Positions 30,690 to 63,535 are shown, counted from the stretch's first letter. The stretch is 64,000 nt of DNA from an uncultured Candidatus Peribacteria bacterium (GCA_964532505.1 CAZHIF010000006.1:13558-77557); one strand, 5' to 3'. The notes: a model not told the origin generated them from the letters alone. Numbers and translations: made by a program.

Positions 30690-30815
30690 TGAAAATAAAA
30701 AAACATAACTAACAAAATCATACTGCTTTATAAAAAAAGAATAAAGTTTTTCTTTACTACCTCTTTTTTGTATACTTTGGATTGCTATTGTGCGTGTTTT
30801 TTTATTGTAAATTTT

Positions 30816-33800: not shown

Positions 33801-33986
33801 GTTGTGTACGCCGTGCAGGTGAATGGAAAACTGCGGGCTGATTTTGAAATGCCAAAAGATGCTCCACGCGAAGAAGTTTTGGAGGCGGCAAAAAAATTGG
33901 AAAAAGTACAGAAATATTTGAATGAAGGAGTAATGAGAAAAGAAATTTTTGTTCCGGGAAAAATTGTAGGGTTTGTAGTAGGGTAG
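30816..33986 (+). CDS. leuS: leucyl-tRNA synthetase carrying an inserted alpha/beta-hydrolase domain
   Basis: HVGH (HIGH), KMSKS, CP1 motifs TTRADTIF and GTGAVFADAHDERD, C-terminal VQVNGKLR. 1056 aa against about 860 aa for canonical bacterial LeuRS. Confidence 0.9.
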   Translation: MSAYNHQEIEKKWQQFWEENKTFSVKNASTSLSDQSEPEQSRRKKFYALDMFPYPSGAGLHVGHPEGYTATDIICRKKRMEGYDVLHPMGWDAFGLPAENFAIKTGVHPNVSTQQNIANFTKQIKSLGFSYDWNREIDTTDPNYYKWTQQLFLKFYEKGLLYEEEKPMNWCPSCKVVCANEEVEQGLHERCGNPVTKKSLKQWMFKITDYAERLLQDLEKPNVIILHGWGGRGSSGWMADLKNFLENNGIEAFSPDLPNTKNPQYAEWKEFFEQNLKQHLRRNTILVGHSLGGGFIQKYLSEEEIQIAEIVLFAPTVSNCGISEIENFFTETFDYEKIKNSTDNIFIFGGGKDPYIKKEELEFLTEKLSAHLEIFPEEEHFWSDRPIDYFSSKAISKFFEKVVDSQLDWPEKIKAMQKNWIGKSEGGEIEFTIQNSELKISVYTTRADTIFSGTFLILSPEHPLVAKITTPEQKTEIEAYQKKCAAMSDLDRTELNKDKTGAFTGSFAINPASGDKMPIWISDFVLASYGTGAVFADAHDERDFEMAKIYGIPLKTSIYPENATPEEKQKIDNLEECFSGKGILHHSLQFDGMKSDEAIPKILDWLTEKGYATKKTNYRLRDWIFTRQRYWGEPIPLVFDENGKCYPLDESELPLVLPESSNYEPSESGESPLAKIEEWVNVKGEITEKGTVKISANGTKKFRRETSTMPNWAGSSWYWLRFMDAKNDEQAWSKDAENFWGPVDLYVGGAEHAVLHLLYARFWHKALYDMGLVSTKEPFKKLVNQGLILSYAYQRSTGGLVPLDEVEEKTIDGIPKYFEKSTRQEVKKIVAKMSKSLKNVINPDEIIEAFGADTLRMYEMFMGPFEQSKAWDTTAVEGMHKFLSRIYRNFTEKEIVDVCPPENLIRLTHQTVKKVSDDIDAFKFNTAISQLMIWMNEFAKLDHIPRIAGGRFIRLLSPFAPHLAEELWKKFKPESETIAFENWATYDEKYLVADTVVYAVQVNGKLRADFEMPKDAPREEVLEAAKKLEKVQKYLNEGVMRKEIFVPGKIVGFVVG
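31473..32036 (+). other. about 188-aa alpha/beta serine-hydrolase (YdeN/RBBP9-like) domain inserted within LeuRS (residues about 220-407)
   Basis: VIILHGWGG, nucleophile elbow GHSLGG (Ser codon 31683..31685), GGGKDPY (Asp 31872..31874), EEEHFW (His 31953..31955). Flanks DLEK / LDWPEKIKAMQKNWIGKSEG are contiguous in canonical LeuRS. Confidence 0.7.
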
Positions 33987-34808: not shown

Positions 34809-37586
34809 TCATTCAATATTCATTCTTGTTTTTCTTTTTCCAATCCACCACATTCCGCCACCCACCGAAGAAATCCCTAAAAAAAACAGAATTAAAACGA
34901 AAAAAGAAGCAGGAGTGCTTACAAAGGAATTTTGCAAAGCAACATTTGCAGGACGAATATCCTTTATTTTTCCTTTATACAAATGGATAATTACAGGCTT
35001 CCCAGCAACAAAAACTTCTTGTGCACGGGGTAGATATTCTGGGAAATCCATGGCATAAAAATTCCCATCTTCCGCCCACATCAGAATCATTTCTTGATCT
35101 ACCAATGAAATAACCCCAGAAATGATGACATCGTTTGGTGGTTTTGGAATCAGTGTGAAAGTCGCTTTTTTGGTGGTTGATTTTTTCTTTTTCGCCTTTT
35201 TCTGTTTTGATTTTTCAACAAATCGTGGGGCAAGCGGACCAAACCACTCATCATTCCTCGCTTTTTTCCAAGAAATCGAAGAAACCACCCCTTCATATTC
35301 ATTGATTAAAGAAATAGTGGCATCCGTGTTTGGAAAAGCAAAAAGAAATGGTTGATTGAGAGGGATAGACTGGTGGGGCAAGAAAAAAATATAGGGAAGT
35401 TTTTTGGTCGTCACCTTTCCTTTTCTCTCAATTCGAAGCGACCATCCTCTCAAAAATCCAGATCGAGCGCTGTTATTGATGAGGAACAAGATCTCATTTT
35501 TAGAATCGGCACCTAATGGATTGGGAAGCACTTTGGCAATGCTTACCGCATGCAATTCGTTTTTTGGAGCTACTTTAAGAGCTTTCTTTTTTGCTTCTTT
35601 TTTGGTAGTTGTTTTTTTGCTCACTTTGGGAGCAGGTGTTGGAGTGGTGAAAAAAGAAGTGATGGATGAATGCTCTGATGAATAGGCACGCACTCCAAAT
35701 TTCTGAAAATCAAGGCGATGGAGTAAAATCGGAGTATTGGAATACTGAGAAAAACAGCTTGGTGTATGAAAATCAATCCCCCATTTTTTAACCTGCAACG
35801 CAGCTTTAAAATGCTCACGCTGCACATTTGAAAGTTCGTTTTCTATCCAGTTAAAACATATCGTATCTAAAAGCGTCATATCACTCGATCGCAATTCTAA
35901 AAACATTTGATCAAGAGAAAGGCTTTTATTTTTCATCGGCAAGCGGACAATATATTCCTGCTCTGGCAATAGCCAATCGTTTGGAAAGATCTTAAGCTCT
36001 TTTCCTGCATTATACAGCCCAATATTTTTGAGAGGAATAATTTCAGAAGATGTATTTTTCAAGCGGATTTCAAATACTTCTGTTGAAACCAAAAAATCAG
36101 AAAATAACAATCCCTCCACGGCAGAAGAAGAATCTCCAGAAATCACAATCTGAAAATCCTGAAGAGAATTGGTATCATCGGTGACAATACGCACTATTTT
36201 CGAATTTTTGGGAAACGCAGCAATATTCACACAATCATATTCTGCCACACTCCCCTTCCACTGATTTTGCAAAATCATCACAGCAATATCTTTTTTTTCT
36301 TTCGATTCCAGATAATTATTCTGATTCGCATAACACATTCCTTCTAAAATCTGAGAATTACTATCGACTAAATAAATACTTTCATCGCTGAGCGAAAGTC
36401 CAGAAATGGGGACAAAAAACATCCAACCTCCGCCCAACTGGCGAGGCGGTTCGGTGGTATCTTTTTGAAACACAAAGCGCAAAATATCCCCCGTTTTTGC
36501 GAATATATTTTCTGGAATGGTATAGGCAACTCCATCAATTCCAAGACGTATTCCTGCTATGTCGGTATTACATGAAACGCATTTTACTTCGATGCTATCG
36601 GGTGAAGCATTGGGAGACACGGAAATAATCTGCAGAATAACTGGATTAGTGGGAGATTTCAGCACTGGAAATGGAATCATATTGTTTTCGAAAGTGGTGG
36701 CAACCGAAGGCGGAATCGAAGTTGAAAGACAAGCAGTATTTTGAGTATTTGCAGAAGGCCTCATCCAACATGTCTGATCAGCAAACACTCCAAAAGATTC
36801 TCCAGATTTTGCAGTTCCAGAATATTGGAACACCGAAACACTCTGTCCATTAGGATCAAAGAGGGTGAGAGTTTCTCCTGTGTTGTTGAGCGTGATGCCA
36901 CTTTGCGATCGATAAACTGCCAACACACTTTGCGACTCAATACGCTGAGAAGCAAAAATATAGGCATCACCAGAAGTATCCACAACTTTCCAACCCGCTA
37001 TATCAAAAGAATTTTCAGTCGGATTAAAAAGTTCAAAATATTCATTCTCCAGTCCGTCCGTTCCTTCGGGATCAGGAAACATTTCAGTAATAATCAATGC
37101 AGGGTAAGGAGTGGGAGTGGGAGTGGGTGTGGGTGTTGAGGATGAAAGTGGTGTCGGCGGAGGAGTTGGAGTGAAAGGGGAAACATTGGGAAGACTTGGA
37201 GAAGAGATTGTCCAAATCCAGCTTCCCTCTAGCAAAGAATAAGACATTCCTGTTTTTTTTGCAGGAATAATGATAGAATCAACCTTTTCACCGTTTGCGG
37301 CATAGATCGAAACAGTGTCACCAGTATCGTTGATTTTATTAGAAAGTGATATAAGTAAGTAACCCCCTGCCGAAATACTGGAAAATGGAAAAGCATACAA
37401 ATTCTCCTTTCCAGTCGAAGTCATTTCAGAATATTTCCATCCTGTAAAATCAGCATATTCATCGCTAAAAATCTCGATATATTCCTCGGTAGGATGCACT
37501 TCTGAAATATTCACCGCCAGTGAAATGCCCGAAAAAATCAAGTTTACAAAAAATAGCCAACAAAAAAGAATGGCATACAGTTTCAT
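34809..37586 (-). CDS. lamin-tail-domain (LTD) repeat surface protein, signal peptide + C-terminal TM anchor
   Basis: LTD-like modules (IITEMFPDPEGTDGLENEYFELFNPTE...IAGWKV; IAKVLPNPLGADSKNEILFLIN...LRGWSL), TP-rich linkers, Lys-rich patches, and a C-terminal FFVLILFFLGISSVGGGMWWIGKRK. Confidence 0.7.
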   Translation of the reverse strand: MKLYAILFCWLFFVNLIFSGISLAVNISEVHPTEEYIEIFSDEYADFTGWKYSEMTSTGKENLYAFPFSSISAGGYLLISLSNKINDTGDTVSIYAANGEKVDSIIIPAKKTGMSYSLLEGSWIWTISSPSLPNVSPFTPTPPPTPLSSSTPTPTPTPTPYPALIITEMFPDPEGTDGLENEYFELFNPTENSFDIAGWKVVDTSGDAYIFASQRIESQSVLAVYRSQSGITLNNTGETLTLFDPNGQSVSVFQYSGTAKSGESFGVFADQTCWMRPSANTQNTACLSTSIPPSVATTFENNMIPFPVLKSPTNPVILQIISVSPNASPDSIEVKCVSCNTDIAGIRLGIDGVAYTIPENIFAKTGDILRFVFQKDTTEPPRQLGGGWMFFVPISGLSLSDESIYLVDSNSQILEGMCYANQNNYLESKEKKDIAVMILQNQWKGSVAEYDCVNIAAFPKNSKIVRIVTDDTNSLQDFQIVISGDSSSAVEGLLFSDFLVSTEVFEIRLKNTSSEIIPLKNIGLYNAGKELKIFPNDWLLPEQEYIVRLPMKNKSLSLDQMFLELRSSDMTLLDTICFNWIENELSNVQREHFKAALQVKKWGIDFHTPSCFSQYSNTPILLHRLDFQKFGVRAYSSEHSSITSFFTTPTPAPKVSKKTTTKKEAKKKALKVAPKNELHAVSIAKVLPNPLGADSKNEILFLINNSARSGFLRGWSLRIERKGKVTTKKLPYIFFLPHQSIPLNQPFLFAFPNTDATISLINEYEGVVSSISWKKARNDEWFGPLAPRFVEKSKQKKAKKKKSTTKKATFTLIPKPPNDVIISGVISLVDQEMILMWAEDGNFYAMDFPEYLPRAQEVFVAGKPVIIHLYKGKIKDIRPANVALQNSFVSTPASFFVLILFFLGISSVGGGMWWIGKRKTRMNIE

Positions 37587-41264: not shown

Positions 41265-42764
41265 ATGCACGTTCTCATAATTGGTTCTGGGATTGCAGGA
41301 GCTTCCACAGCTTTTCGGTTGTTGGAAGATTCTGCTGTGCATATCACCATTATAACGAGAGGAGAAACAATTCAAGAAAGCAATTCATCACTTGCGCAAG
41401 GAGGAATTGTGATGGTGGGGAGCGAAAACAACGATTCGGTGGCAAGCTTGGAAGAGGATATTTTGCGAGCAGGAGATGAAAAAAATAATCCAAAAGCCGT
41501 GCATTGGCTTGCGACACATGCAACGCCTTTGGTGGAAAAGATATTGAAACAAGGCGCTCAAGTGCTGTTCGACTCTTCTCTTGGGCTTGAAGCAGCACAT
41601 TCGCATTCTCGAGTAGCTCATATAGCAGATCACACTGGGAAATCCATTATGACAGCATTGCTAAATACTCTCAAAAAATCTTCCCGCATCAGATGGAAAA
41701 CAAACTGCACCGCAATTGATCTAATCATGCACCATGATGAGTGCATCGGCGCAATGGTTTTAGAAAATAATAGTATTTCCCAAATATTTGCAGACGCTGT
41801 GGTACTCGCCACTGGTGGCATAGCGCATCTCTACTCGATGACCTCAAACCCAGAAGGAGCGCGAGGAGACGGCATCGCCATGGCGCACCGTGCAGGAGCA
41901 AAGATACAAGATTTGGAATACATCCAATTTCACCCCACGGTCTTGTCTTGTGAAGAAGAAAGAAAACCGCTGATCTCTGAGCGGGTGCGAGGAGAAGGTG
42001 CAATTCTCAAAACGCCAGATACCAAAAAACCATTTATGGAACAATACAATTCAAAATGGAAAGACTTGGCGCCCAGAGACGAAGTGAGTCGTGCGATTTT
42101 TTCTGAAATGCAAGCACATAAATATGATCATGTGCTGCTCGATCTGCATTCTATAATGCCAAAAGAACAAATTATAAAAACTTTTCCGACTATTTATCAA
42201 TCATGTCTTCGATACAAAATTGATATCACCACAGATGATATTCCTGTGGTTCCTGCAGCACACTACACATGCGGAGGTGTGCAGGTTGATCTACACGGAA
42301 AAACGACTCTTCCGCGACTGTATGCTGTGGGAGAAGTGAGCCATACAGGACTTCATGGCGCTAATAGACTCGCCAGTACTTCACTTCTTGAAGGTTTGGT
42401 GTGGGGGTATTTTGCTGCTGAAGATATTTTAAAAATGCCATCAAATACTGATTTCCCGACGCCTCAAAATCCTATCTTTACCGATACGAAACAAACAAAT
42501 TCCTCGGAAAAAAAAGCTCTTTTCCAAAAAATCAAAACCATTTTATGGGAAAAAGTGGGAATTGTGCGCACTTCAAAAGGATTGCAAGATGCTATGCAAG
42601 AACTTTTGGAATTACAAAAAAAAATTGATGCAATGCTGCATAAAGAATTTCTTAGCGATGAAGACATTGGACTCTCCAATGCCATTTTGGTAGCAACGCT
42701 TATTGCTAGATCCGCATTCGAAAATCATGAATCAGCAGGATGTCATTTTTTAGAAAAACATTAA
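41265..42764 (+). CDS. nadB: L-aspartate oxidase
   Basis: FAD motif IIGSGIAGAS, LAQGGI, HYTCGGVQVD, GLHGANRLASTSLLEGLVWG. Confidence 0.85.
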   Translation: MHVLIIGSGIAGASTAFRLLEDSAVHITIITRGETIQESNSSLAQGGIVMVGSENNDSVASLEEDILRAGDEKNNPKAVHWLATHATPLVEKILKQGAQVLFDSSLGLEAAHSHSRVAHIADHTGKSIMTALLNTLKKSSRIRWKTNCTAIDLIMHHDECIGAMVLENNSISQIFADAVVLATGGIAHLYSMTSNPEGARGDGIAMAHRAGAKIQDLEYIQFHPTVLSCEEERKPLISERVRGEGAILKTPDTKKPFMEQYNSKWKDLAPRDEVSRAIFSEMQAHKYDHVLLDLHSIMPKEQIIKTFPTIYQSCLRYKIDITTDDIPVVPAAHYTCGGVQVDLHGKTTLPRLYAVGEVSHTGLHGANRLASTSLLEGLVWGYFAAEDILKMPSNTDFPTPQNPIFTDTKQTNSSEKKALFQKIKTILWEKVGIVRTSKGLQDAMQELLELQKKIDAMLHKEFLSDEDIGLSNAILVATLIARSAFENHESAGCHFLEKH

Positions 42765-44503
42765 TATCTCCCACATTCATTCTCAATTTCCTGAAACAAA
42801 AAGAACGAAGAAACCTTCCGTCCGTGGGCACAGGCATCTGGAGTATCGCATTGTTTCCAATCTTCCACCAAAGCTTCCATTTCTGACTGACTCAAACGGT
42901 CTCCAAATTTTTTTGCACCACGACATGCGGCGTATGAAATAATACGCTGACCAATACCTTGCAGTGCTTTCCCAAATGCAGGATCAAAAAAATCAAGATC
43001 CGCCAACAAAGCTGAAAATAATTTTTCCAATTCGATATGCTCGCTTCCACTCGGAACTGCCGTCACTGCCACTTCATTTCCTCCAAAATCTTCAATAGAA
43101 AACCCAAATGCCTCCAGCTCTGGAAGATTATCGAGCAGCTGCAATTTTTCAGAAGTCGAAAAAGACATGACCACAGGAGTCAAAAGTAATTGAGAAGAGA
43201 TTGTTTTTTGAGCTAATGCTTTTTGATATTGCTCATATCGAACCCTCTCGTGTGCGGCGTGCTGATCGATAATACGAATCCCATTGGATTCTTCCACCAC
43301 AATAAAACTATTTCGAACCTGTCCAATCACTTTCCAAGAATGAGATTCGAGATGGGGCTCCTCCATGGAAAAAAACGGAATCCTTGTACTTATTGGCTTT
43401 AAAGGCACATGATCAACTCTTGGAAATGAATCATTTGAAAACGTGGTAGATTTTTGAACGTGCGGAAGATGGTATGCTGGAGAAACTGCTTTTGGCACAA
43501 CACTATTCCCAAGTGAAGCAGATGTCCTCGAAAGCCCTTTTTCAAGACTTCCCTTGATGATTTGAAAAATTTCTTTAGGATGAGAAAATTTCACCTCTAG
43601 CTTTCTCGGATGCACATTCACATCCACTTGATCGGGGGGAATGGTGAGAGAAAGTACTACCACTGGATGCTTTCCCGAAGGAAGTAATGATTGATAGGCT
43701 TGCTGGATGCACGCACTAAAAATACTATCCCTCTGTATCATCCGACCATTCACAAAGAAAAATTGCTTATCCTTTGTAGATCGATGAAGAGAAGAATGTG
43801 AACAAAAACCCTCAATACGCATATCATTCCCATCATATTGCAAAGGCAAAAGATAGCTGGCAATGTTTTCTCCCAACACTTTTTTACAACGGATGAGAAA
43901 CGGATAGTCAGAAGGGATTAGTGGAAAAGAAAGAATTTCTCGGTGTTCGGTGCGGAGCGTAAAAGACACCAGCGGATGAGAAAGAGCAAATTGTTCTATT
44001 GTTTTGACGATTTCACGAGTTTCTGTTTCTGCTGATTTCATAAATTTTTTTCGTGCTGGCACGTTCCAAAAAAGATTTTCAACAATCGTTTCTGTTCCCA
44101 CTGCGCAACCAATGGGTGTACTTTGATCACCATTTTTTACTTCAATGCCATGCAAATCATTCGCTTGCTTTGTGCGAATGGTACAGTGCGACACAGACGC
44201 GATAGCAGCGATCGCCTCTCCTCGAAATCCAAAGGATGAGAGGGTAAATAAATCATCAGTCGTTGCAATTTTCGACGTTGCATATCGCTGAAAACTCATC
44301 ACCGCATCATCAGGATTCATTCCGCATCCATTATCAATAATCCGAATTTCTTTTAGTCCCCCCTCTTCAATCTGCACGATTATATTCGTTGATCCCGCAT
44401 CAATAGAATTTTCTACTAATTCTTTTACCACACTTGCAGGTCGTTCCACCACTTCCCCTGCGGCAATTTGGTTTTGAAGCGATGGAGGAAGAAGTCGAAT
44501 CAT
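42761..44503 (-). CDS. mutL: DNA mismatch repair endonuclease MutL
   Basis: GHKL motifs ELVENSIDAG and DNGCGM. C-terminal endonuclease motifs DQHAAHERVRYE, ACRGAKK and CAHGR. The start overlaps the atpC stop (ATGA). Confidence 0.9.
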   Translation of the reverse strand: MIRLLPPSLQNQIAAGEVVERPASVVKELVENSIDAGSTNIIVQIEEGGLKEIRIIDNGCGMNPDDAVMSFQRYATSKIATTDDLFTLSSFGFRGEAIAAIASVSHCTIRTKQANDLHGIEVKNGDQSTPIGCAVGTETIVENLFWNVPARKKFMKSAETETREIVKTIEQFALSHPLVSFTLRTEHREILSFPLIPSDYPFLIRCKKVLGENIASYLLPLQYDGNDMRIEGFCSHSSLHRSTKDKQFFFVNGRMIQRDSIFSACIQQAYQSLLPSGKHPVVVLSLTIPPDQVDVNVHPRKLEVKFSHPKEIFQIIKGSLEKGLSRTSASLGNSVVPKAVSPAYHLPHVQKSTTFSNDSFPRVDHVPLKPISTRIPFFSMEEPHLESHSWKVIGQVRNSFIVVEESNGIRIIDQHAAHERVRYEQYQKALAQKTISSQLLLTPVVMSFSTSEKLQLLDNLPELEAFGFSIEDFGGNEVAVTAVPSGSEHIELEKLFSALLADLDFFDPAFGKALQGIGQRIISYAACRGAKKFGDRLSQSEMEALVEDWKQCDTPDACAHGRKVSSFFLFQEIENECGRY

Positions 44504-57528: not shown

Positions 57529-57603
57529 TGGTAGTGCCAAGGGGAATCGAACCCCTGTTGCCGGACTGAGAACCCAGCGTCCTAACCGCTAGACGATGGC
57601 ACC
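57529..57603 (-). tRNA. tRNA-Glu (anticodon CTC), CCA encoded
   Basis: Reverse complement GGTGCCATCGTCTAGCGGTTAGGACGCTGGGTTCTCAGTCCGGCAACAGGGGTTCGATTCCCCTTGGCACTACCA; anticodon loop TTCTCAG; G1-U72 wobble pair. Confidence 0.85.
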
Positions 57604-57724
57604 GTACCTTCAAAATATGCCTATAGCATTTTTGCAAAAAGCATTCTTACGCTTTCCTCAAAAAAAGGCAAGAGAAAAAAGTTGTCAGCGAAATTTGGAA
57701 AATACCCGATTTTTTCAAAAAAAA

Positions 57725-57753
57725 TTGCAAAAAACAAAGAAATCTGATATAAT
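57725..57753 (+). promoter_or_regulatory. strong sigma70-like promoter TTGCAA-N17-(TGa)TATAAT for the mosaic surface-protein gene
   Basis: -35 at 57725..57730, TG at 57745..57746, -10 at 57748..57753. The first ATG downstream of the predicted transcription start is 57779. Confidence 0.55.
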
Positions 57754-57778
57754 GATGAGAAATTTTTACAAAAAAAAT

Positions 57779-60700
57779 ATGAAATACTCTTTGAAAAAAG
57801 CAGGAATCCTTTTCGGCTTTGGATGTTTGATGATAGGTGGTCTTTGGGGAGGAATGAATTCTTTGGAAGTCCAAGAACTGAATGCAAAAGAATCAGAAAA
57901 AAATGCTGATCCTCTCGCTGCGATATTCCAAGTCATAAGTGGAAACCCTGAATATAAAGCCGATTTCACCACCGATACGTTAAAAAGTTATTCAGGTCCA
58001 AAGTCTGATGCCTTAAAAAATTGTATTGCAACCGCTCCCAAAAGTGCAGAAAAACAACTCGTCTATGGTGAATACAATCAAGCCGCTGTCGTCAATCAAA
58101 CCACCCAAGAAATCCTCGATGAGATCAATCCTGTTTTCGGGCATGCCGTTCGTAACTCCGAAATCAACTGGGTTTGGGATGGCGTCAATCACCAATACAC
58201 GTTCAAGGTTGCCAAGGGGGAAGAATCTCTCTGGTGGTGTTATTTCCGAAACGAAACCAATTTCTTCAAAAATTTCTTCAAGCAAGACAAGATGCAATAT
58301 GGCCTCGCTGGTAACCCCTCTCTCCTCGATTCCGATAGTGATGGGGTAACCGATCTTCAAGAAACTACCGATGGCACCAACAAACTGGATGCCACTTCCT
58401 ACAAAGATTCCGATAGAGACAAAGTTCCCGATGTCGTAGAAGCAAAAGAAGGAAGTAATCCCATGGATAAGACTTCGTTCAGGGATTCTGATACCGGTGG
58501 TGTACCGGATTATGTAGAAATTATTTTCTATGTCAAAAAAGGTTTGACCGCTGGAAACAGCACCAACATTGCTGATGATGCTCGTGATACCGATGCAGGT
58601 GGAATGGCTGACTACAAGGAAATTTTAAATGGAACCGATCCAAAAAATAGTAGTGATGATTACAATGGCATTGTTTGTACTGCGGTCTATCTTCCTGTTT
58701 GTGGAATCAAAAATAATGAGAAAAAAACATATTCCAATATATGTGAGATGAGCAAAGCAGCTGCCACAAAAGTTTCGGATGGAGAATGTACAACGGTTCC
58801 CGTTCCGGTGCATGGCGTTTGTGGTAGCGCGCATGGAAGTGCCGCTTCTTCTTCTCCCACCACCAATTTATGTGCAATTGGAACCGCTTCTTCTGTTTCC
58901 GGTTCCGGTCCTTGGTATTGGTCTTGTGCAGGAATAAATGGAGGAACAAACGCAAGTTGTTCTGCGGATAAAACTCCAACTCCGGTGCATGGTATGTGTG
59001 GAAGCAGCAATGGAACTACTGTTTCTTCTTCTCCCACCACCAATTTATGTGCAATTGGAACCGCTTCTTCTGTTTCCGGTTCCGGTCCTTGGTATTGGTC
59101 TTGTACCGGCTCCAATGGAGGAAGTTCTGCAAATTGCTCCGCTCCCAAACTTGTTCCAAGCGTCGATTGCAAGAATGGTGATGCTCTCACAAAAGCTATT
59201 TGCAAGGGTTATCAAGATATTCTCAGCCGAGATCCTGAATATGGTGGCTACATGTACTGGTACACCGATCTCCCAAAAAATGGGGTTACTGCCAACGACC
59301 AAGGCATCATCAATGACTTCATTCGAAGTGCTGCCATTGCTACTGGCGAAATCTCTTCCGAATACTGTCCTTCCCTTGCCTGCAAAATTGTAAAAGCCTA
59401 TCGGGATATTCTGAGAAAAGCTCCAGACACGCCCAGTTATAACAAGGCTCTTGCCGAGTTAACCGCCAATGCAACCCAAGCCATTGTCAATACTTATGTA
59501 CAAAATCTCGGAAATACAGGTGGCTCTTCTTCCCCTCAAAACCTCGGAAACTGTCCCGCAAATGCATTTGCTTATAGCGCCAATCTCGGAAAGCAATATT
59601 CCTGCACCTGTCTCGCTTCTCAAACAACTTCCGGTTCCGTTTGGGGGACTGATATCTACACCTCCGATTCCGCTTTGTGTCGGGCTGCCGTTCATGCTGG
59701 ATACCAACAATCGGGATTCCAAGGAACCGTTGTTTTTGAAATGCTTGCTGGACAATCCACCTATACCGGAAGCACCCAAAAAGGAATAACATCTCTTTCT
59801 ACGGGAGCAAAAACCTCTTCCATTCGATTCGTCTCTGGAAATTCCATGGGATCGGGTGGCGGTGGCGGAAATACTGAATTTTGGGTTACAGGGTATGTAA
59901 TGCCAGGACGAATCAATGTATTAAAACCTGAAGATTATACATTATTAAGTGCCATAAACCATGTCACAGCTATTCCAAATCCCGATGGCACACTCAATTA
60001 CGGCTATTCTGGAGTATCCAACCCAGATGCCGAAATGAAAAATTTTGTGAGTGTTGCACACGCAAATAATCAAGAAATTCTTTTTGGCGTACAATGGACA
60101 CTCAACACCCTCAATTCTGTTGCTTCTTGGGACGCCATGACATCTGCAACAAGCAGAACACGATTGGTTAATGAAATTTTGGCAGTAGTAGAAAAATATG
60201 ATTATGATGGTGTGGATCTCGACCTCGAACCCGTTGATAATGGAGGAACGACATTGGCAGGAAGTGCCAGAAAACAAGGATATGTTGCTTTTGTAAAAGA
60301 ATTGCGAAATGCATTGAACAATCCAAAATATAATACCATTGCAGGAAAACGAGCAATTCTTGCCGCTTCGACCATTGGTCCACTTGATGCCGAACCACAT
60401 GCACAACTCATTGATGCTTTTGATCAAATCAATGTGATGACGTATGACATGAACTTTCATGACGGTGACAGCATCGGCTTTGATTCTCCTATCAATGGAC
60501 CATATTATACCGTTGATAAATTGATACAAGGCATGAAACAAGCAGGAATCCCTGCAAACAAACTTGGACTTGGAATCAATTTTGATGTGGTATGCTGGAC
60601 AGGAAAAACAGGACCAGGCGGATCCACAGCAGGAGTCCCAAAAGAAGGTGAACTCTCCTATTCGAGCATGGAATCTATTATTCAAAACGCAACACTTCAT

Positions 60701-61951
60701 TGGGATAGCACCGCACAAATGCATTGGTTCCAAAATGGAAATAAATGGTGTAACTATAACTCTCCTCAATCCATTGCCGCAAAAATAGCGTATGCAAAAA
60801 AAGAAGGACTGGGAGGAGTCATGATTTGGGAAATGGGATTGGATAGCAGTTCCAGAACTCTCCGCAAAGCCGTTCAAGATGCCATTGGAGGAACAACCAC
60901 TCTAAACACGGTGAATGGAACATGTGGAAGTGCGAATGGAACAAGCAGTGCATCGGCTCCCACCACCAATTTATGCTCTTCCGGAACCGCAACTTCTGTT
61001 TCTGGAGCCGGTCCATGGACATGGTCTTGTGCAGGAATAAATGGAGGAACAAACGCCAGCTGTTCTGTCAATAAAACAGGTCTTTCCTGTTCTTCCGATT
61101 CCATGTCTACCGCTGTTTGTGCAGGGTACAACCGCATTTTGAACCGAACACCCGATTCCGGAGGACTTGCCTATTGGGTTCAGGATTTCAAAAACCGAGG
61201 AATTTCTTCCTCCAATGCCCTTGCAATTGATATTAACATTTACAGTGGAGCAAAAGCAGCAAAAGAAATTCCACCCTGTTCCACCATTCGTTGTAAAGTC
61301 ATATATGCTTATGAAACCATATTGGGAAGATTCCCCGAACAAGGCGGATATGACTATTGGTCAACCAATATTTCATCATCTGCTTCACAAGAACTTGTCA
61401 ATCAGTACGTTCAAACATCTGCCTTCACATGGACATTGGGATCCTATGGATCCTGCAGTGCCACCTGCGGAAGTGGAACACAAACCGCAAGCTATTATTG
61501 TAAAAACAATGAAACAGGTTCTTCTGTTGCCGATTCCAAATGCTATGGAAGTAAACCCACTAATAAAACACAAAGTTGTAATACCCAGGCGTGTGCTATC
61601 ACCTATACATGCACCACAGATGCGATGTCAAAAGCCATTTGTGCAGGATATACACGCATTTTGAACCGAACACCCGATTCCGGAGGACTTGCCTATTGGG
61701 TTCAGGATTTCAAAAACCGAGGAATTTCTTCCTCCAATGCCCTTGCAATTGATATTAACATTTACAGTGGAGCAAAAGCAGCAAAAGAAATTCCACCCTG
61801 TTCCACCATTCGTTGTAAAGTCATATATGCTTATGAAACCATATTGGGAAGATTCCCCGAACAAGGCGGATATGACTATTGGTCAACCAATATTTCGGAA
61901 AATGCCACACAAACAACCGTGAACCAATATATTATTGATGCTTCAAAATAA
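57779..61951 (+). CDS. 1390-aa secreted mosaic protein: TSP3-like Ca repeats, Kazal-like, Cys-rich 59-aa repeats, DUF4214 repeats, LCCL, GH18, TSP1
   Basis: Signal anchor MKYSLKKAGILFGFGCLMIGG. Motifs are listed in the findings. The ORF-track start 57596 overlaps tRNA-Glu and the promoter, so it was rejected. Confidence 0.8.
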   Translation: MKYSLKKAGILFGFGCLMIGGLWGGMNSLEVQELNAKESEKNADPLAAIFQVISGNPEYKADFTTDTLKSYSGPKSDALKNCIATAPKSAEKQLVYGEYNQAAVVNQTTQEILDEINPVFGHAVRNSEINWVWDGVNHQYTFKVAKGEESLWWCYFRNETNFFKNFFKQDKMQYGLAGNPSLLDSDSDGVTDLQETTDGTNKLDATSYKDSDRDKVPDVVEAKEGSNPMDKTSFRDSDTGGVPDYVEIIFYVKKGLTAGNSTNIADDARDTDAGGMADYKEILNGTDPKNSSDDYNGIVCTAVYLPVCGIKNNEKKTYSNICEMSKAAATKVSDGECTTVPVPVHGVCGSAHGSAASSSPTTNLCAIGTASSVSGSGPWYWSCAGINGGTNASCSADKTPTPVHGMCGSSNGTTVSSSPTTNLCAIGTASSVSGSGPWYWSCTGSNGGSSANCSAPKLVPSVDCKNGDALTKAICKGYQDILSRDPEYGGYMYWYTDLPKNGVTANDQGIINDFIRSAAIATGEISSEYCPSLACKIVKAYRDILRKAPDTPSYNKALAELTANATQAIVNTYVQNLGNTGGSSSPQNLGNCPANAFAYSANLGKQYSCTCLASQTTSGSVWGTDIYTSDSALCRAAVHAGYQQSGFQGTVVFEMLAGQSTYTGSTQKGITSLSTGAKTSSIRFVSGNSMGSGGGGGNTEFWVTGYVMPGRINVLKPEDYTLLSAINHVTAIPNPDGTLNYGYSGVSNPDAEMKNFVSVAHANNQEILFGVQWTLNTLNSVASWDAMTSATSRTRLVNEILAVVEKYDYDGVDLDLEPVDNGGTTLAGSARKQGYVAFVKELRNALNNPKYNTIAGKRAILAASTIGPLDAEPHAQLIDAFDQINVMTYDMNFHDGDSIGFDSPINGPYYTVDKLIQGMKQAGIPANKLGLGINFDVVCWTGKTGPGGSTAGVPKEGELSYSSMESIIQNATLHWDSTAQMHWFQNGNKWCNYNSPQSIAAKIAYAKKEGLGGVMIWEMGLDSSSRTLRKAVQDAIGGTTTLNTVNGTCGSANGTSSASAPTTNLCSSGTATSVSGAGPWTWSCAGINGGTNASCSVNKTGLSCSSDSMSTAVCAGYNRILNRTPDSGGLAYWVQDFKNRGISSSNALAIDINIYSGAKAAKEIPPCSTIRCKVIYAYETILGRFPEQGGYDYWSTNISSSASQELVNQYVQTSAFTWTLGSYGSCSATCGSGTQTASYYCKNNETGSSVADSKCYGSKPTNKTQSCNTQACAITYTCTTDAMSKAICAGYTRILNRTPDSGGLAYWVQDFKNRGISSSNALAIDINIYSGAKAAKEIPPCSTIRCKVIYAYETILGRFPEQGGYDYWSTNISENATQTTVNQYIIDASK
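58676..58789 (+). other. Kazal-like module
   Basis: CTAVYLPVCGIKNNEKKTYSNICEMSKAAATKVSDGEC, containing the Kazal core PVCG...TYSN.C. Confidence 0.55.
58808..59161 (+). repeat. two tandem 177-nt (59-aa) Cys/Gly/Ser-rich repeats with an 82-nt perfectly identical core; third diverged copy at about 60907..61077
   Basis: Core 58846..58927 is identical to 59023..59104. Peptide: HG.CGS..G....SSPTTNLCAIGTASSVSGSGPWYWSC.G.NGG....CS. Confidence 0.9.
59552..59800 (+). other. LCCL domain
   Basis: CPANAF......YSCTCLASQTTSGSVWGTDIYTSDSALCRAAVHAGYQQSGFQGTVVFEMLAGQSTYTGSTQKGITS. Confidence 0.7.
59872..60846 (+). other. GH18 (chitinase / endo-beta-N-acetylglucosaminidase-type) catalytic domain
   Basis: Catalytic DGVDLDLE at 60206..60229; MTYDM; GGVMIWEMGLD. 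Confidence 0.7.
61133..61374 (+). repeat. 242-bp perfect direct repeat, copy 1 (DUF4214-type module)
   Basis: Base-for-base identical to 61655..61896 (offset 522 nt); checked by eye along the full length. Confidence 0.95.
61430..61594 (+). other. thrombospondin type 1 (TSP1)-like repeat
   Basis: WTLGSYGSCSATCGSGTQTASYYCKNNETGSSVADSKCYGSKPTNKTQSCNTQAC, containing the CSxTCGxG core with six Cys. Confidence 0.6.
61655..61896 (+). repeat. 242-bp perfect direct repeat, copy 2
   Basis: Identical to 61133..61374. Confidence 0.95.
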
Positions 61952-62107: not shown

Positions 62108-63535
62108 ATGTTGTGGTTTTCTGGGAATCGTTGGACATATTGGGAAATGGGAATATTGGTAGGGATTGTGTTTTTGCAAGTGCTTCGATTTTGGAATTTG
62201 GACACGGCACCATCAGGATTTTATGTAGATGAAGCCGCAGGAGCAGCTCATGTTATGTGCTTACTCGAAACGGGAACAAGCTTTCATGGTGATTTTTTAA
62301 AACTATTTTATTCTTCTTTGGGCGGAGGATACACGACCTCCGTTTTTGCTTTGATGCAAAGCGTTTGGACGTTTTTTATGGGAACTTCTGTTATAGACTT
62401 TCGAGCTTTTTCGGTGTTTTCTGGGGTGTTTTCGGTATGGGGAATTTTCTTGATTGCCTCTCATTTTGCAGGAAGAAAGGCCGGGCTTTTAGCATCGCTT
62501 TTACTCAGCGTCTCGCCATGGTTTTTTCTGAATACTCGCATTGCGTGGGATCCTCCTTTGGTACTACCTTTTCTTATTTTTGGAATGGTATTTTTTTTCA
62601 CCGTCCCTCGAAAATGGTATTTTTCATTGTTTTCAGGATTGTGCTTTTCTTTAGCAATGCTTTCGTATCCTCCTACCAAAGTGCAGCTGGCGCTTTTGCT
62701 TCCCCTACTCTTCTTTTTTCAATATCGATTCAACGTTCTAAAAGCCATTCGGCAAGAATATCCATTTCTCATACTGTTTATATTTTTCACAATCCTGTTG
62801 GGAATTTTTTATTGGAATTATCCAGAAGCCCTTTCTCGATCAGAACTTCTAAGTATCACAGGAGGATACTATTGGGACGTGGTAGCGAAAACTCCTCAAA
62901 CTATCATGGGAGTTATAGAAGTGTTTTTTCAAAATGTAGCCCAATATTTTTCGTATAATTTTCTATGGGAAATAGGTGATACCAACCTGCGCCACCACAC
63001 AGGATTTGGCGGAATGATGAGCCTTTTTGAAATTATTGGATCGATTTTGGGAATTGGCTGGCTAATGCTTTCTAAAAAGTATATATCAAAACGAAATCAG
63101 CAAATTTTGATGTTTTGTTTGTTAGGGTATCTCTTTGGAGTGATTCCCGCAGCCCTCACCTGGGACGGATCTCCACACGCACTTCGGGCCATTGGAGCGA
63201 TTCCTTTTGGAGTACTTTTCGCTTCGTTCTCATTTTTATTTTTATGGGAGAAAATAAAATGCAAGATTTGGTCGAAATGGATATTCCTTTTGCTGCTTAT
63301 TCCTGCCTTTTTTTCGGGATTATATTTTTATGATTTTTTCACAAATTATCCTGCAAAAAGCACTGCTTGGTTTCAAGAAGAAGTGTTGCAAATAGCTAAG
63401 GACGGAAAACAAACAGGAGATTTTTCTAGATTTGAAGAGCGCGTTGTTCGTGATAATTATGAACCACTTGCGAAATCATATTTCTTGATGGAATTTAAAG
63501 AAGAGAAATGCATACAACTCCAAACAAATCACTAA
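62108..63535 (+). CDS. GT39/ArnT/PMT-like polytopic glycosyltransferase
   Basis: More than 10 hydrophobic helices; first-loop acidic motif FYVDEAAGAAH, typical of GT-C family 39-type enzymes. Confidence 0.55.
   Translation: MLWFSGNRWTYWEMGILVGIVFLQVLRFWNLDTAPSGFYVDEAAGAAHVMCLLETGTSFHGDFLKLFYSSLGGGYTTSVFALMQSVWTFFMGTSVIDFRAFSVFSGVFSVWGIFLIASHFAGRKAGLLASLLLSVSPWFFLNTRIAWDPPLVLPFLIFGMVFFFTVPRKWYFSLFSGLCFSLAMLSYPPTKVQLALLLPLLFFFQYRFNVLKAIRQEYPFLILFIFFTILLGIFYWNYPEALSRSELLSITGGYYWDVVAKTPQTIMGVIEVFFQNVAQYFSYNFLWEIGDTNLRHHTGFGGMMSLFEIIGSILGIGWLMLSKKYISKRNQQILMFCLLGYLFGVIPAALTWDGSPHALRAIGAIPFGVLFASFSFLFLWEKIKCKIWSKWIFLLLLIPAFFSGLYFYDFFTNYPAKSTAWFQEEVLQIAKDGKQTGDFSRFEERVVRDNYEPLAKSYFLMEFKEEKCIQLQTNH

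What the first reader, a model, noticed from the sequence alone, without database searches (positions are those of the whole stretch)
57779..61951. Secreted 1390-aa mosaic protein combining animal-ECM-type modules (TSP3, Kazal, LCCL, TSP1) with a GH18 glycosidase
The protein has an N-terminal signal anchor (MKYSLKKAGILFGFGCLMIGG). Reading along it, the modules are: (1) four acidic DxDxDG-type calcium-binding repeats of the thrombospondin type 3 kind (58326..58662: DSDSDGVTDLQE, DSDRDKVPDVVE, DSDTGGVPDYVE, DTDAGGMADYKE); (2) a Kazal-like module (58676..58789); (3) three copies of a 59-aa Cys/Gly/Ser module; (4) DUF4214-type repeats (Y..IL.R.PD.GG..YW); (5) an LCCL domain (59552..59800, VWGTDIYTSDSALCRAAVHAGY); (6) a GH18 barrel with the catalytic DGVDLDLE motif (60206..60229) and GGVMIWEMGLD; (7) a TSP1-like repeat (61430..61594, GSCSATCGSGTQ). 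Each module occurs sporadically in bacteria, but finding TSP1, LCCL, Kazal and GH18 in one polypeptide is very unusual. The combination suggests adhesion to a host or prey surface coupled to glycan (chitin, N-glycan or peptidoglycan-like) hydrolysis. The gene has the best promoter in the window (TTGCAA-N17-TGaTATAAT) and is followed by a GT39-type glycosyltransferase.
Basis: partly seen in the sequence, partly recalled or inferred. Interest (0 to 1): 0.7.

Follow-up and report, generated by a model that had tools for sequence, protein, structure and literature searches.

The report
Mosaic secreted GH18 chitinase-like protein
An uncultured bacterium encodes a 1390-residue exported enzyme in which a chitinase-type catalytic domain is joined to adhesion-type modules better known from animal matrix proteins; the combination looks unique, but each part comes from a module pool that bacteria already share.

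Summary
ORF 57779..61951 (+) encodes a 1390-aa protein with an N-terminal signal/anchor helix.

Profile and PDB searches support these modules:
- GH18: Pfam 1e-41, with an intact DGVDLDLE motif that aligns with chitinase DGIDLDWE.
- LCCL: 64 bits.
- ADAMTS-type TSP1: 42 bits.
- Five DUF4214 units.
- A four-cysteine Kazal module. Its best PDB match, end to end, is the two-disulfide inhibitor GmSPI-2.
- Bacterial-type TSP3 calcium repeats. The Pfam score is weak, but the stretch is 48-58% identical to TSP3_bac-bearing proteins.

The "Cys/Gly/Ser" module is a widespread unannotated unit. It occurs 927 times in 115 hit proteins, gives an AlphaFold pLDDT of 96, and has no PDB fold relative.

No other protein combining GH18 with LCCL, TSP1, Kazal or the CGS module turned up in searches of 5.8 and 1.84 billion proteins or in 80 metagenomic GH18 loci.

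The modules' nearest relatives are bacterial, and GC3 matches the neighbouring genes. This is therefore domain shuffling within a bacterial extracellular toolkit, not recent import from animals.

Most likely it is a surface-exposed, catalytically competent GlcNAc-polymer hydrolase with binding, spacer and protective modules. Substrate, biological partner and taxonomy remain unresolved.

It is a new variant of a known kind and of moderate interest.

The parts
57725..57753 (+). Promoter-like site TTGCAA-N17-TATAAT with TG (extended -10), 25 nt upstream of the ATG
   Evidence: It is a consensus match only; such sites are not enriched in the region (9 found vs 14.7 expected).
57779..61951 (+). Coding sequence of the 1390-aa mosaic protein, including the stop codon
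   Evidence: The longer start at 57596 overlaps tRNA-Glu.
57779..57856 (+). N-terminal signal peptide or signal-anchor helix (MKYSLKK + AGILFGFGCLMIGGLWGG)
   Evidence: Read directly from the sequence. Homologues P0289 and L003:6291-7724 have the same kind of N-terminus. Cleavage was not predicted because no SignalP was available.
57857..58318 (+). N-terminal domain of unknown function (conserved core about residues 60-175; 2 Cys)
   Evidence: No Pfam hit. It is 47% identical to the N-terminal domain of P0289 (which also has GH18) and to a second protein in L003. The AF2 model is poor (pLDDT 66) and has no fold match.
58319..58654 (+). Four acidic Ca-binding-type repeats of the bacterial TSP3 kind (DSDSDGVTDLQE, DSDRDKVPDVVE, DSDTGGVPDYVE, DTDAGGMADYKE)
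   Evidence: TSP3_bac scores 18.3 bits, below the cut-off of 25. The stretch is 48-58% identical over about 110 aa to repeat arrays in P0020, P0049, P0063, P0084 and P0115, which carry PF18884/PF02412.
58655..58798 (+). Non-classical (four-Cys, two-disulfide) Kazal-like module; Cys300-Cys337 = 58676..58789
   Evidence: Kazal_1 scores 24.4 bits alone (cut-off 21) and 18.5 bits in the full protein. The best PDB match is GmSPI-2 (2m5x/4hgu), E 1.8e-4, with all four Cys aligned; all 43 PDB hits at E<=10 carry Kazal-type or related protease-inhibitor names (one is agrin). GmSPI-2 has two disulfides and inhibits subtilisin and proteinase K (PMC4169406).
58799..59152 (+). Two tandem CGS modules (about 58 aa each, 4 Cys each)
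   Evidence: The two copies are 87% identical at DNA level. The family has 927 copies in 115 hit proteins. AF2 gives pLDDT 96. There is no PDB fold relative and no Pfam hit.
59153..59533 (+). DUF4214 pair a (one recognisable unit and one degenerate unit; 4 Cys)
   Evidence: 21.4 bits when scanned alone.
59534..59848 (+). LCCL domain (4 Cys; VWGTDIYTSDSALCRAAVHAGY)
   Evidence: Pfam LCCL 64 bits. Cochlin 1jbi, E 0.002. The nearest named relatives are from Novosphingobium and Roseomonas.
59849..59869 (+). Gly-rich linker (SGGGGGN) between LCCL and GH18
   Evidence: Read directly from the sequence.
59870..60892 (+). GH18 (beta/alpha)8 catalytic domain with a small insertion domain. The DGVDLDLE motif is at 60206..60229 (Glu817 at 60227..60229); MTYD is at residues 887-890; GGVMIWE has Trp1016.
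   Evidence: Pfam 143.9 bits. Alignments over the whole barrel to chitinases 5gzu and 6kxn. Invariant columns in the subfamily alignment A3.
60893..61072 (+). Third CGS module
   Evidence: 77.5% DNA identity to CGS1.
61073..61417 (+). DUF4214 pair b
   Evidence: Pfam 48.3 bits, 2 stretches.
61418..61597 (+). TSP1 repeat of the ADAMTS type (6 Cys; CSATCGSGTQ)
   Evidence: TSP1_ADAMTS 42.2 bits and TSP_1 21.8 bits. Thrombospondin-1 TSRs, E 3.5e-6.
61598..61948 (+). DUF4214 pair c. It contains an exact 242-bp copy of part of pair b (about 61655..61896 = about 61133..61374).
   Evidence: The Logan contig L002 starts about 29 nt before the end of the repeat.
62108..63535 (+). Neighbouring gene: polytopic membrane protein, possibly a GT-C (PMT_2/ArnT-like) glycosyltransferase. 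No link to the mosaic protein has been shown.
   Evidence: PMT_2 scores 25.8 bits against a cut-off of 26.1. There is no NCBIfam hit, and no terminator-like site in the 156-nt gap. The P0289 locus has no such neighbour.

Best explanation
The gene encodes an exported glycoside hydrolase of family 18 from an uncultured low-GC bacterium. The protein is either released or tethered to the cell surface by its N-terminal helix.

The catalytic barrel keeps the residues needed for substrate-assisted hydrolysis of beta-1,4-linked GlcNAc polymers, so it most likely cuts chitin or chito-oligosaccharides (inferred). The other twelve modules are non-catalytic extracellular parts that bacteria shuffle among large surface proteins. 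Their likely roles are:
- Calcium-binding TSP3 repeats, CGS modules and DUF4214 pairs act as rigid spacers or binding units.
- LCCL, fused to the barrel by a seven-residue glycine linker, and TSP1 act as ligand- or glycan-binding units that hold the enzyme on its target.
- The two-disulfide Kazal module may protect the protein from subtilisin-type proteases, or may block proteases of the target organism.

Shown here: module identities, an intact catalytic motif, export signals, an even cysteine count in every extracellular module, uniqueness of the architecture, and bacterial affinity of the modules. Inferred: the substrate, the binding roles and the biological partner.
For: **Catalytic domain.** Pfam GH18 scores 1e-41. 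Alignment over the full barrel to solved chitinases places DGVDLDLE on DGIDLDWE, MTYD on MTYD/MSYD, and GGVMIWE on GGAMYWE. In alignment A3 the same residues are invariant in the closest subfamily members, which include the cluster of the Thiothrix nivea GH18.

**Export.** The protein has an N-terminal basic and hydrophobic segment. It has 42 Cys outside that segment, and every module carries an even number.

**Accessory modules.**

**Shared module pool.**
- CGS modules co-occur with TSP1 (P0105, P0111, P0120).
- CGS modules co-occur with Kazal (P0064).
- CGS modules co-occur with DUF4214 (P0078).
- CGS modules co-occur with TSP3 (P0049 and others) in other proteins.
- The genomic contexts checked for those proteins are bacterial: P0105 sits beside GcrA, RelA and Era, and P0064 beside RNase Y, HU and PGK.
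- The nearest named LCCL relatives are from Novosphingobium and Roseomonas, ahead of a rotifer and a newt.

**Native gene.** GC3 is 0.346, within the neighbours' range of 0.20-0.38. The higher total GC comes from codon positions 1-2. The gene sits among housekeeping genes.

**A simpler relative.** P0289 has the same N-terminal domain followed by a GH18. This suggests that N-domain + GH18 is the older core and the other modules are additions.
Against: - No activity or binding data exist.
- The SxGG motif on strand 3, typical of classical chitinases, is replaced by FGVQW. The closest GH18 relatives are only 33-43% identical (36% by BLASTP, 43% by phmmer, for P0250), so substrate specificity cannot be transferred. 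It could be chitin, peptidoglycan-like glycans or N-glycans.
- The TSP3 and Kazal calls are near or below the Pfam thresholds.
- The full-length architecture rests on a single assembly that crosses an exact 242-bp internal repeat.
- Taxonomy and lifestyle of the organism were not resolved.
Confidence: 0.65

Rival explanations
1. The protein is mainly an attachment-and-breach device of an episymbiotic or predatory bacterium. The adhesion modules bind the surface of a host or prey cell, and the GH18 domain cuts that cell's wall glycan (peptidoglycan-type or chitin-like) rather than environmental chitin.
For: - The CGS module is most abundant and most similar in proteins named as Paceibacteria, Magasanikbacteria and Micavibrio-like Alphaproteobacteria, which include episymbionts and predators.
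- A homologous CGS copy sits in a phage protein of the adhesion kind.
- The window also encodes other large surface proteins with no family or with LTD domains.
- The protein is anchored at its N-terminus and is long enough to reach away from the cell.
Against: - The organism's taxonomy and lifestyle are unknown.
- The window carries LeuB/LeuC, ProA and a NadB-like flavoprotein, which is a richer metabolism than in typical reduced episymbionts.
- The best matches of the GH18 domain are true chitinases.
- No partner, secretion system or lysis genes are adjacent.
Confidence: 0.2
2. The GH18 domain is a non-catalytic lectin (chi-lectin type), and the whole protein is purely an adhesin.
For: Many accessory adhesion modules are present. 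The SxGG motif is degenerate.
Against: Chi-lectins lack the catalytic Glu and/or the preceding Asp. Here the full D-x-x-D-x-D-x-E motif, the MxYD Tyr/Asp and the conserved Trp are all present.
Confidence: 0.05
3. Part of the architecture is an assembly artefact. In particular, the C-terminal DUF4214-TSP1-DUF4214 block could result from mis-joining across the exact internal repeat.
For: - There is an exact 242-bp direct repeat 522 bp apart.
- The protein is a singleton from one NCBI contig.
- The independent Logan contig breaks at the repeat.
Against: - The reading frame stays open for 4.17 kb.
- Every module boundary falls between intact domains.
- The 36 nt at the start of the repeat differ by both synonymous and non-synonymous changes, as expected of a real duplication.
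- A break about 29 nt inside the repeat is what a k=31 graph gives if both copies are real.
- GC3 is uniform along the gene.
Confidence: 0.08
4. The LCCL, TSP1 and Kazal modules were recently captured from an animal or other eukaryotic host.
For: - These families were defined in animals.
- The top whole-protein LCCL hit is a newt protein with 11 LCCL copies, and a rotifer protein is 54% identical.
- The best PDB matches are animal proteins.
Against: - By single-domain score, the nearest named LCCLs are bacterial: Novosphingobium 90.5 bits and Roseomonas 87 bits, against rotifer 72.8 and newt 65.9.
- TSP1 and Kazal co-occur with the bacterial CGS module in other bacterial contigs.
- There is no compositional anomaly at third codon positions.
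- The PDB is biased towards animal proteins.
Confidence: 0.05

Closest known systems
Modular cell-surface GH18 chitinases of bacteria, e.g. Paenibacillus ChiW (PDB 5gzt/5gzu)
   Same: It is the best PDB match (E 1e-33 to 1e-35). The shared features are a GH18 barrel with DxxDxDxE, MxYD and the conserved Trp, a small insertion domain, and a large multi-module exported protein.
   Different: The aligned region shows only modest similarity. ChiW has two GH18 barrels (two matched stretches). From my own knowledge, not tested here, it also has SLH and CBM54 modules. This protein has one barrel and an unprecedented set of TSP3, Kazal, CGS, DUF4214, LCCL and TSP1 modules. Its motif is followed by EPV rather than EYP, and SxGG is degenerate.
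Single-domain GH18 of Thiothrix nivea (cluster of P0250) and the N-domain + GH18 protein P0289
   Same: These are the closest catalytic domains found: P0250 36% identity by BLASTP (43% by phmmer), P0289 33%. They share YDGVDxDxEPV, FDQINxMTYDM, NKLGLGxxFD and GLGGVMIWE. P0289 also shares the N-terminal domain at 47% identity.
   Different: They have no LCCL, TSP1, Kazal, CGS, TSP3 or DUF4214 modules. They are 409 and 654 aa long, against 1390 aa here.
LCCL domain proteins (cochlin; bacterial LCCL-repeat proteins)
   Same: Pfam LCCL scores 64 bits. The protein has the four Cys and the YGT..YT.DS..C.AAVHAG motif, and is 53% identical to a Novosphingobium LCCL protein.
   Different: The relatives found mostly carry several LCCL copies (2-12 matched stretches), or LCCL with Ig, TIR or CarboxypepD_reg domains. 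None carries a glycosidase.
Non-classical Kazal inhibitors with two disulfides (Galleria GmSPI-2, 2m5x/4hgu)
   Same: The alignment runs end to end with all four Cys and the PVCG...KTYSN.C core. GmSPI-2 has the same two-disulfide pattern.
   Different: Here it is one internal module of a large bacterial protein, with a three-residue longer loop after CG. The predicted P1 residue is Ala302 (from my own reading of the alignment). Inhibitory activity is untested.
TSP1 repeats of the ADAMTS type, and bacterial CGS+TSP1 proteins (P0105, P0111, P0120)
   Same: It has six Cys and the CSxTCGxGxQ motif, scores 42 bits against PF19030, and is 42-52% identical to TSP1 copies in P0105 and P0111.
   Different: The Trp ladder is reduced to one Trp plus one Tyr, and the Arg layer is absent (TASYY in place of RxRxC). 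There is a single copy, flanked by duplicated DUF4214 pairs.

Membership tests
Glycoside hydrolase family 18 | Match to the family profile over the (beta/alpha)8 barrel | tested here: met
   PF00704 scores 143.9 bits against a cut-off of 29.6. 6kxn aligns over residues 694-1032.
Glycoside hydrolase family 18 | DxxDxDxE motif with the catalytic Glu | tested here: met
   D810-G-V-D813-L-D815-L-E817 aligns with DGIDLDWE of 5gzu and DGVDIDWE of 6kxn. The motif is invariant in A3.
Glycoside hydrolase family 18 | MxYD Tyr/Asp and the conserved Trp on strand 8 | tested here: met
   MTYD at residues 887-890 and Trp1016 in GGVMIWE align with the chitinase equivalents.
Glycoside hydrolase family 18 | SxGG motif on strand 3 (typical of classical chitinases, not universal in GH18) | tested here: not met
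   The sequence is ILFGVQW. The closest subfamily members also vary here.
Glycoside hydrolase family 18 | Hydrolytic activity on GlcNAc-containing glycans | not testable with these tools
   This needs an enzyme assay.
LCCL domain (PF03815) | Profile match above threshold, four conserved Cys and the core motif | tested here: met
   64.0 bits against 22.6. Cys592/609/611/634 are present. Cochlin 1jbi, E 0.002.
Thrombospondin type 1 repeat (PF19030/PF00090) | Profile match above threshold, six Cys, CSxTCG motif | tested here: met
   42.2 bits against 23.8 (PF19030) and 21.8 against 21.6 (PF00090). There are six Cys. PDB hits are TSR-containing proteins, led by thrombospondin-1.
Thrombospondin type 1 repeat (PF19030/PF00090) | Stacked Trp/Arg (CWR) layers | tested here: not met
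   Only W1217 and Y1223 lie ahead of the first Cys, and TASYY replaces the Arg-bearing strand. The ladder is degenerate.
Kazal-type inhibitor domain (PF00050) | Profile match above threshold | tested here: inconclusive
   24.4 bits alone against a cut-off of 21, but 18.5 bits in the full protein. Only profile positions 5-35 of 49 are matched.
Kazal-type inhibitor domain (PF00050) | Cysteine framework and PVCG...TYxNxC core | tested here: met
   It matches the four-Cys non-classical framework of GmSPI-2 end to end, E 1.8e-4. The classical Cys1-Cys5 pair is absent.
Kazal-type inhibitor domain (PF00050) | Serine-protease inhibition | not testable with these tools
   This needs an inhibition assay.
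Bacterial TSP3 repeat (PF18884) | Profile match above threshold | tested here: not met
   18.3 bits against a cut-off of 25, and only the fourth repeat is matched.
Bacterial TSP3 repeat (PF18884) | Homology to repeat arrays that carry the family, and DxDxDGxxDxxE-type motifs | tested here: met
   48-58% identity over about 110 aa to P0020, P0049, P0063, P0084 and P0115, which carry PF18884/PF02412. Four motifs can be read in the sequence.
DUF4214 (PF13946) | Profile match above threshold | tested here: met
   96.4 bits against 23.2, with five stretches.
GT-C glycosyltransferase, PMT_2/GT39-like (neighbouring gene 62108..63535) | Profile match above threshold | tested here: inconclusive
   PF13231 scores 25.8 bits against a cut-off of 26.1 (E 1.4e-5). 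There is no NCBIfam hit.

The most novel reading that the evidence does not exclude
The protein is the host- or prey-contact organ of an ultra-small or predatory bacterium. A surface-tethered stalk of calcium-stiffened and disulfide-locked modules would place a wall-cutting GH18 on the partner cell, with the Kazal module neutralising the partner's proteases. In this reading the CGS unit it carries is a new fold family of cell-surface-binding modules, shared by CPR bacteria, predatory Alphaproteobacteria and their phages.
Probability: 0.12. Interest if true: 0.6.

Novelty: new variant of a known kind. Interest (0 to 1): 0.35.

Why it matters
Modular secreted chitinases are well known. The new element here is the set of partners. 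LCCL, TSP1, a two-disulfide Kazal module and bacterial TSP3 repeats are joined to a GH18 barrel in one bacterial polypeptide, and no second example was found.

This gives a concrete, expressible case for testing what LCCL and TSP1 modules bind when they occur in bacteria. It also allows a test of whether a Kazal module can protect, or arm, a bacterial surface enzyme.

The work also flags an abundant, confidently folding module (CGS) that has no Pfam entry and no solved structural relative. That module deserves a family definition.

If the organism proves to be an episymbiont or predator, the protein would be a candidate contact factor.

On present evidence, however, it is one more product of domain shuffling among the large surface proteins of uncultured bacteria.

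Tried and rejected
- **Taxonomy.** Exact look-ups give no names for any window protein. A genome-contig scan with LCCL+GH18 found nothing. A scan with RNase Y found only a 44%-identical Clostridium MAG. Rfam found only four tRNAs. The phylum is therefore unresolved. A CPR affiliation is only hinted at by the names of CGS-bearing hits.
- **N-terminal domain.**
  - The word-indexed protein search found nothing, and a JGI metagenome scan with alignment A1 found nothing.
  - The two-sequence AF2 model was poor: pLDDT 66 for one model, and under 45 for the other four. Its Foldseek hits are meaningless, with best E 0.7.
  - The function of this domain stays unknown.
- **Conserved operon partner.** The P0289 locus has different neighbours, so no link to the downstream GT-C-like gene can be claimed.
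- **Intrinsic terminator.** None was seen between the gene and its neighbour.
- **Other copies of the modules in the window.** None were found.
- **Literature.** Searches for LCCL with bacterial chitinase, TSP1 in Patescibacteria, CPR GH18 and the SRA run found nothing relevant.
- **Lipoprotein.** I considered this and rejected it. The residues before Cys16 (G-F-G) do not fit a lipobox; this is my own reading, with no predictor run.
- **Foreign island.** I considered this and rejected it, because GC3 matches the neighbouring genes.
Full report
**1. The observation**

Window 57779..61951 (+) is an uninterrupted ORF of 1390 codons plus a stop. The mechanical ORF list extends it upstream to 57596, giving 1451 aa, which is also the public gene model P0001. 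That extension overlaps tRNA-Glu(CTC) at 57529..57603 on the other strand. ATG 57779 gives an N-terminus (MKYSLKK followed by 18 hydrophobic residues) like those of the two homologues that share the next domain.

The exception is the TSP3 block, whose motifs run 58328..58621 rather than 58326..58662.

**2. Are the module calls real?**

Pfam on the whole protein and on separate segments gives:

| Module | Score (bits) | Cut-off (bits) | Note |
|---|---|---|---|
| GH18 | 143.9 | 29.6 | |
| LCCL | 64.0 | 22.6 | |
| TSP1_ADAMTS | 42.2 | 23.8 | |
| TSP_1 | 21.8 | 21.6 | |
| DUF4214 | 96.4 | 23.2 | five stretches |
| Kazal_1 (segment alone) | 24.4 | 21 | 18.5 in the full protein |
| TSP3_bac | 18.3 | 25 | below cut-off |

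Sequence searches of the PDB give independent support.
- The Kazal stretch hits proteins deposited as Kazal-type or related protease inhibitors (plus agrin) among all 43 matches at E<=10. The best is Galleria silk protease inhibitor 2 (2m5x/4hgu, E 1.8e-4), aligned end to end with all four cysteines.
- GmSPI-2 is a non-classical Kazal with only two disulfides. It inhibits subtilisin and proteinase K (PMC4169406). The module here is that variant, not a low-complexity match.
- The top matches for the TSP1 stretch are thrombospondin-type repeats (thrombospondin-1, THSD7A, ADAMTS13), with thrombospondin-1 at E 3.5e-6.
- The LCCL stretch hits cochlin at E 0.002.
- The TSP3 block fails the Pfam threshold. 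It is, however, 48-58% identical over about 110 residues to repeat arrays in five proteins whose precomputed Pfam annotation is TSP3_bac or TSP_3.

**3. The catalytic domain**

The GH18 segment aligns to solved chitinases over the whole barrel; 6kxn covers residues 694-1032. Three conserved features line up:
- D810-G-V-D-L-D-L-E817 falls on DGIDLDWE / DGVDIDWE.
- MTYD falls on MTYD / MSYD.
- GGVMIWE falls on GGAMYWE.

The stretch between MTYD and the last strand aligns with the small alpha+beta insertion of chitinases.

The closest relatives are only 33-43% identical. They are the cluster of the Thiothrix nivea GH18 (P0250: 36% by BLASTP, 43% by phmmer) and the metagenomic protein P0289. With them the domain shares a subfamily signature: YDGVDxDxEPV, FDQINxMTYDM, NKLGLGxxFD and GLGGVMIWE. 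The classical SxGG motif is not kept.

The domain therefore looks catalytically competent. Its substrate cannot be assigned beyond GlcNAc-containing glycans, with chitin the default.

**4. The unannotated parts**

*The CGS module.* The 'Cys/Gly/Ser' module has no Pfam or NCBIfam match. It is nevertheless what every one of the 119 other listed hits to the full-length query shares (8-12% coverage for nearly all).
- An HMM built from the three copies finds 927 copies in 115 of the collected hit proteins (nearly all from that search), with up to 19 in tandem.
- The consensus is vNGvCGSANG......PT.NLC..GTAS.VSGSGPW.W.C.G.NGG..ASCSA, with four invariant Cys.
- With a 60-sequence alignment, AlphaFold2 gives a small all-beta domain at mean pLDDT 96.
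- Foldseek finds no PDB relative; the best E is 2.9.
- Foldseek finds one BFVD match, which is simply a homologous copy (46% identity) in a protein of an uncultured tailed phage.

*The N-terminal domain.* Residues about 60-175 also have no family. They are 47% identical to the N-terminal domain of P0289 (654 aa: signal anchor, this domain, a linker region, GH18). They are similarly close to a second, 477-aa protein encoded 2 kb away on the same contig. Attempts to go further failed.

**5. Is the architecture unusual?**

Yes, as far as these searches reach.
- The word-indexed search of 5.8 billion proteins with the LCCL+GH18 segment returned LCCL proteins and GH18 proteins, but none with both.
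- The full HMMER scan of 1.84 billion representatives returned only the protein itself with a single match across both domains.
- I compared each module against all 347 collected proteins. Only the query combines GH18 with LCCL, TSP1, Kazal, CGS or DUF4214.
- None of the 80 best GH18 loci from JGI metagenomes has any of these modules beside the barrel.
- The limit of this test is that a distant LCCL+GH18 protein scoring below about 128 bits would not have been listed.

**6. Where do the modules come from?**

The modules are native bacterial material, not recent animal imports.
- CGS modules co-occur with TSP1 in P0105, P0111 and P0120.
- CGS modules co-occur with Kazal in P0064.
- CGS modules co-occur with DUF4214 in P0078.
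- CGS modules co-occur with TSP3 arrays in several other proteins.
- P0105 lies between GcrA, Era, RNase III, RelA and LeuA genes, an alphaproteobacterial setting.
- P0064 lies beside RNase Y, HU and PGK, next to other giant proteins with Kazal and fibrinogen-C modules.
- Two of the LCCL relatives found (P0125, P0128) lie in bacterial contigs.
- By single-domain score the closest named LCCLs are from Novosphingobium (90.5 bits) and Roseomonas (87 bits). They rank ahead of a rotifer (72.8) and a newt (65.9).

Within the window the gene sits among housekeeping genes: NusG, ProA, Rpe, NAD kinase, RNase Y and others. Its GC3 (0.346) lies inside the neighbours' range. The higher overall GC comes from Gly/Ala/Ser/Thr/Cys codons.

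**7. Integrity of the gene**

The C-terminal DUF4214 pair is a near-copy of the pair before the TSP1 repeat.
- A 278-bp match is 96% identical. All 11 differences lie in its first 36 nt, so about 242 bp are identical at 61133..61374 and 61655..61896.
- The only independent assembly of this locus is a Logan contig from SRR11582163. It begins about 29 nt before the end of the second copy.
- That is where a k=31 graph would break if both copies exist. This fits a real, very recent duplication or gene conversion, but the order of the blocks is not independently verified.

**8. How it most likely works**

*Shown here.* The protein has export signals. Every extracellular module has an even number of cysteines, 42 in all. 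The GH18 active-site motif is intact. A seven-residue glycine linker ties LCCL to the barrel.

*Inferred.* The protein is displayed on, or released from, the cell. The GH18 domain hydrolyses a GlcNAc polymer. LCCL and TSP1, and perhaps CGS and DUF4214, bind the substrate surface or hold the enzyme away from the cell. The TSP3 repeats bind calcium and stiffen the stalk. The Kazal module resists or inhibits subtilisin-like proteases. I put this at 0.65.

*Rivals.*
- A contact-and-breach role against a host or prey cell: 0.2.
- A non-catalytic lectin: 0.05.
- A partial assembly artefact: 0.08.
- Recent capture from animals: 0.05.

**9.

The promoter-like site exists at 57725..57753 (10 of 12 matches, with TG). 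Such sites are not more frequent than in shuffled sequence, and a better match occurs elsewhere.

The downstream gene is a polytopic membrane protein that matches PMT_2 just under the threshold (25.8 vs 26.1 bits). 'GT-C-like' is fair; 'GT39' is not shown. No conserved linkage was found.

**10. Verdict**

The protein is a new variant of a known kind, the modular secreted GH18 enzyme, and its accessory set has no second example in the data searched. Interest is moderate (0.35). The architecture is unique, but it is a plausible product of routine domain shuffling, and neither the substrate, the partner nor the organism is known. The most reusable by-product is the CGS module, an abundant and confidently folding extracellular unit with no family entry.

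Noticed in passing
window 58799-59152 and 60893-61072; proteins P0002-P0120: The CGS module is a widespread, unannotated four-Cys unit of about 57 aa. It occurs 927 times in 115 hit proteins, with up to 19 tandem copies. AF2 gives pLDDT 96. It has no PDB fold relative and no Pfam or NCBIfam entry. One homologous copy sits in an uncultured Caudovirales protein (A0A6J5SE33).
   Followed up: partly
window ~61133-61374 and ~61655-61896: An exact 242-bp direct repeat lies inside the gene, flanking the TSP1 repeat. The 36 nt before it carry 11 differences (4 synonymous and 4 non-synonymous codon changes). The independent Logan contig L002 starts about 29 nt before the repeat's end.
   Followed up: yes
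window 57857-58318; L003:2062-4026(+) and L003:6291-7724(-): The N-terminal domain has no family assignment. It recurs after the signal anchor in two proteins of another metagenomic contig, once ahead of a GH18 and once ahead of an unrelated C-terminal region. It seems to be a lineage-specific leader domain for exported proteins.
   Followed up: partly
window 57529-57603(-) and 57596-57778(+): The public 1451-aa gene model (P0001) starts inside tRNA-Glu(CTC) on the opposite strand. The start is probably mis-called by 61 codons.
   Followed up: yes
window 26395-27603(-): The MutS ORF contains only domains I-III (401 aa). The next gene, 100 nt downstream, is an ABC-transporter ATPase, so the clamp and ATPase domains of MutS are missing. 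A full-length MutL is present at 42761-44503.
   Followed up: no
window 13530-17474(+): A 1314-aa protein has no Pfam or NCBIfam match and a strongly Pro-rich C-terminus. It has no obvious N-terminal signal.
   Followed up: no
window 34809-37586(-): A 924-aa protein matches the lamin-tail domain (LTD) profile in two stretches. It is another large, probably extracellular protein in the same window.
   Followed up: no
window 30768-33986(+): The leucyl-tRNA synthetase is 1072 aa long. It has an insertion of about 200 residues between the parts that match the LeuRS profile (residues about 201-411).
   Followed up: no
L087:1-5932 (JGI Ga0302241_1000608): Next to the CGS+Kazal protein P0064 lie two more giant proteins, carrying fibrinogen-C, DUF2341 and Kazal matches. 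This is a cluster of surface proteins built from 'eukaryote-like' modules in a bacterial contig.
   Followed up: no
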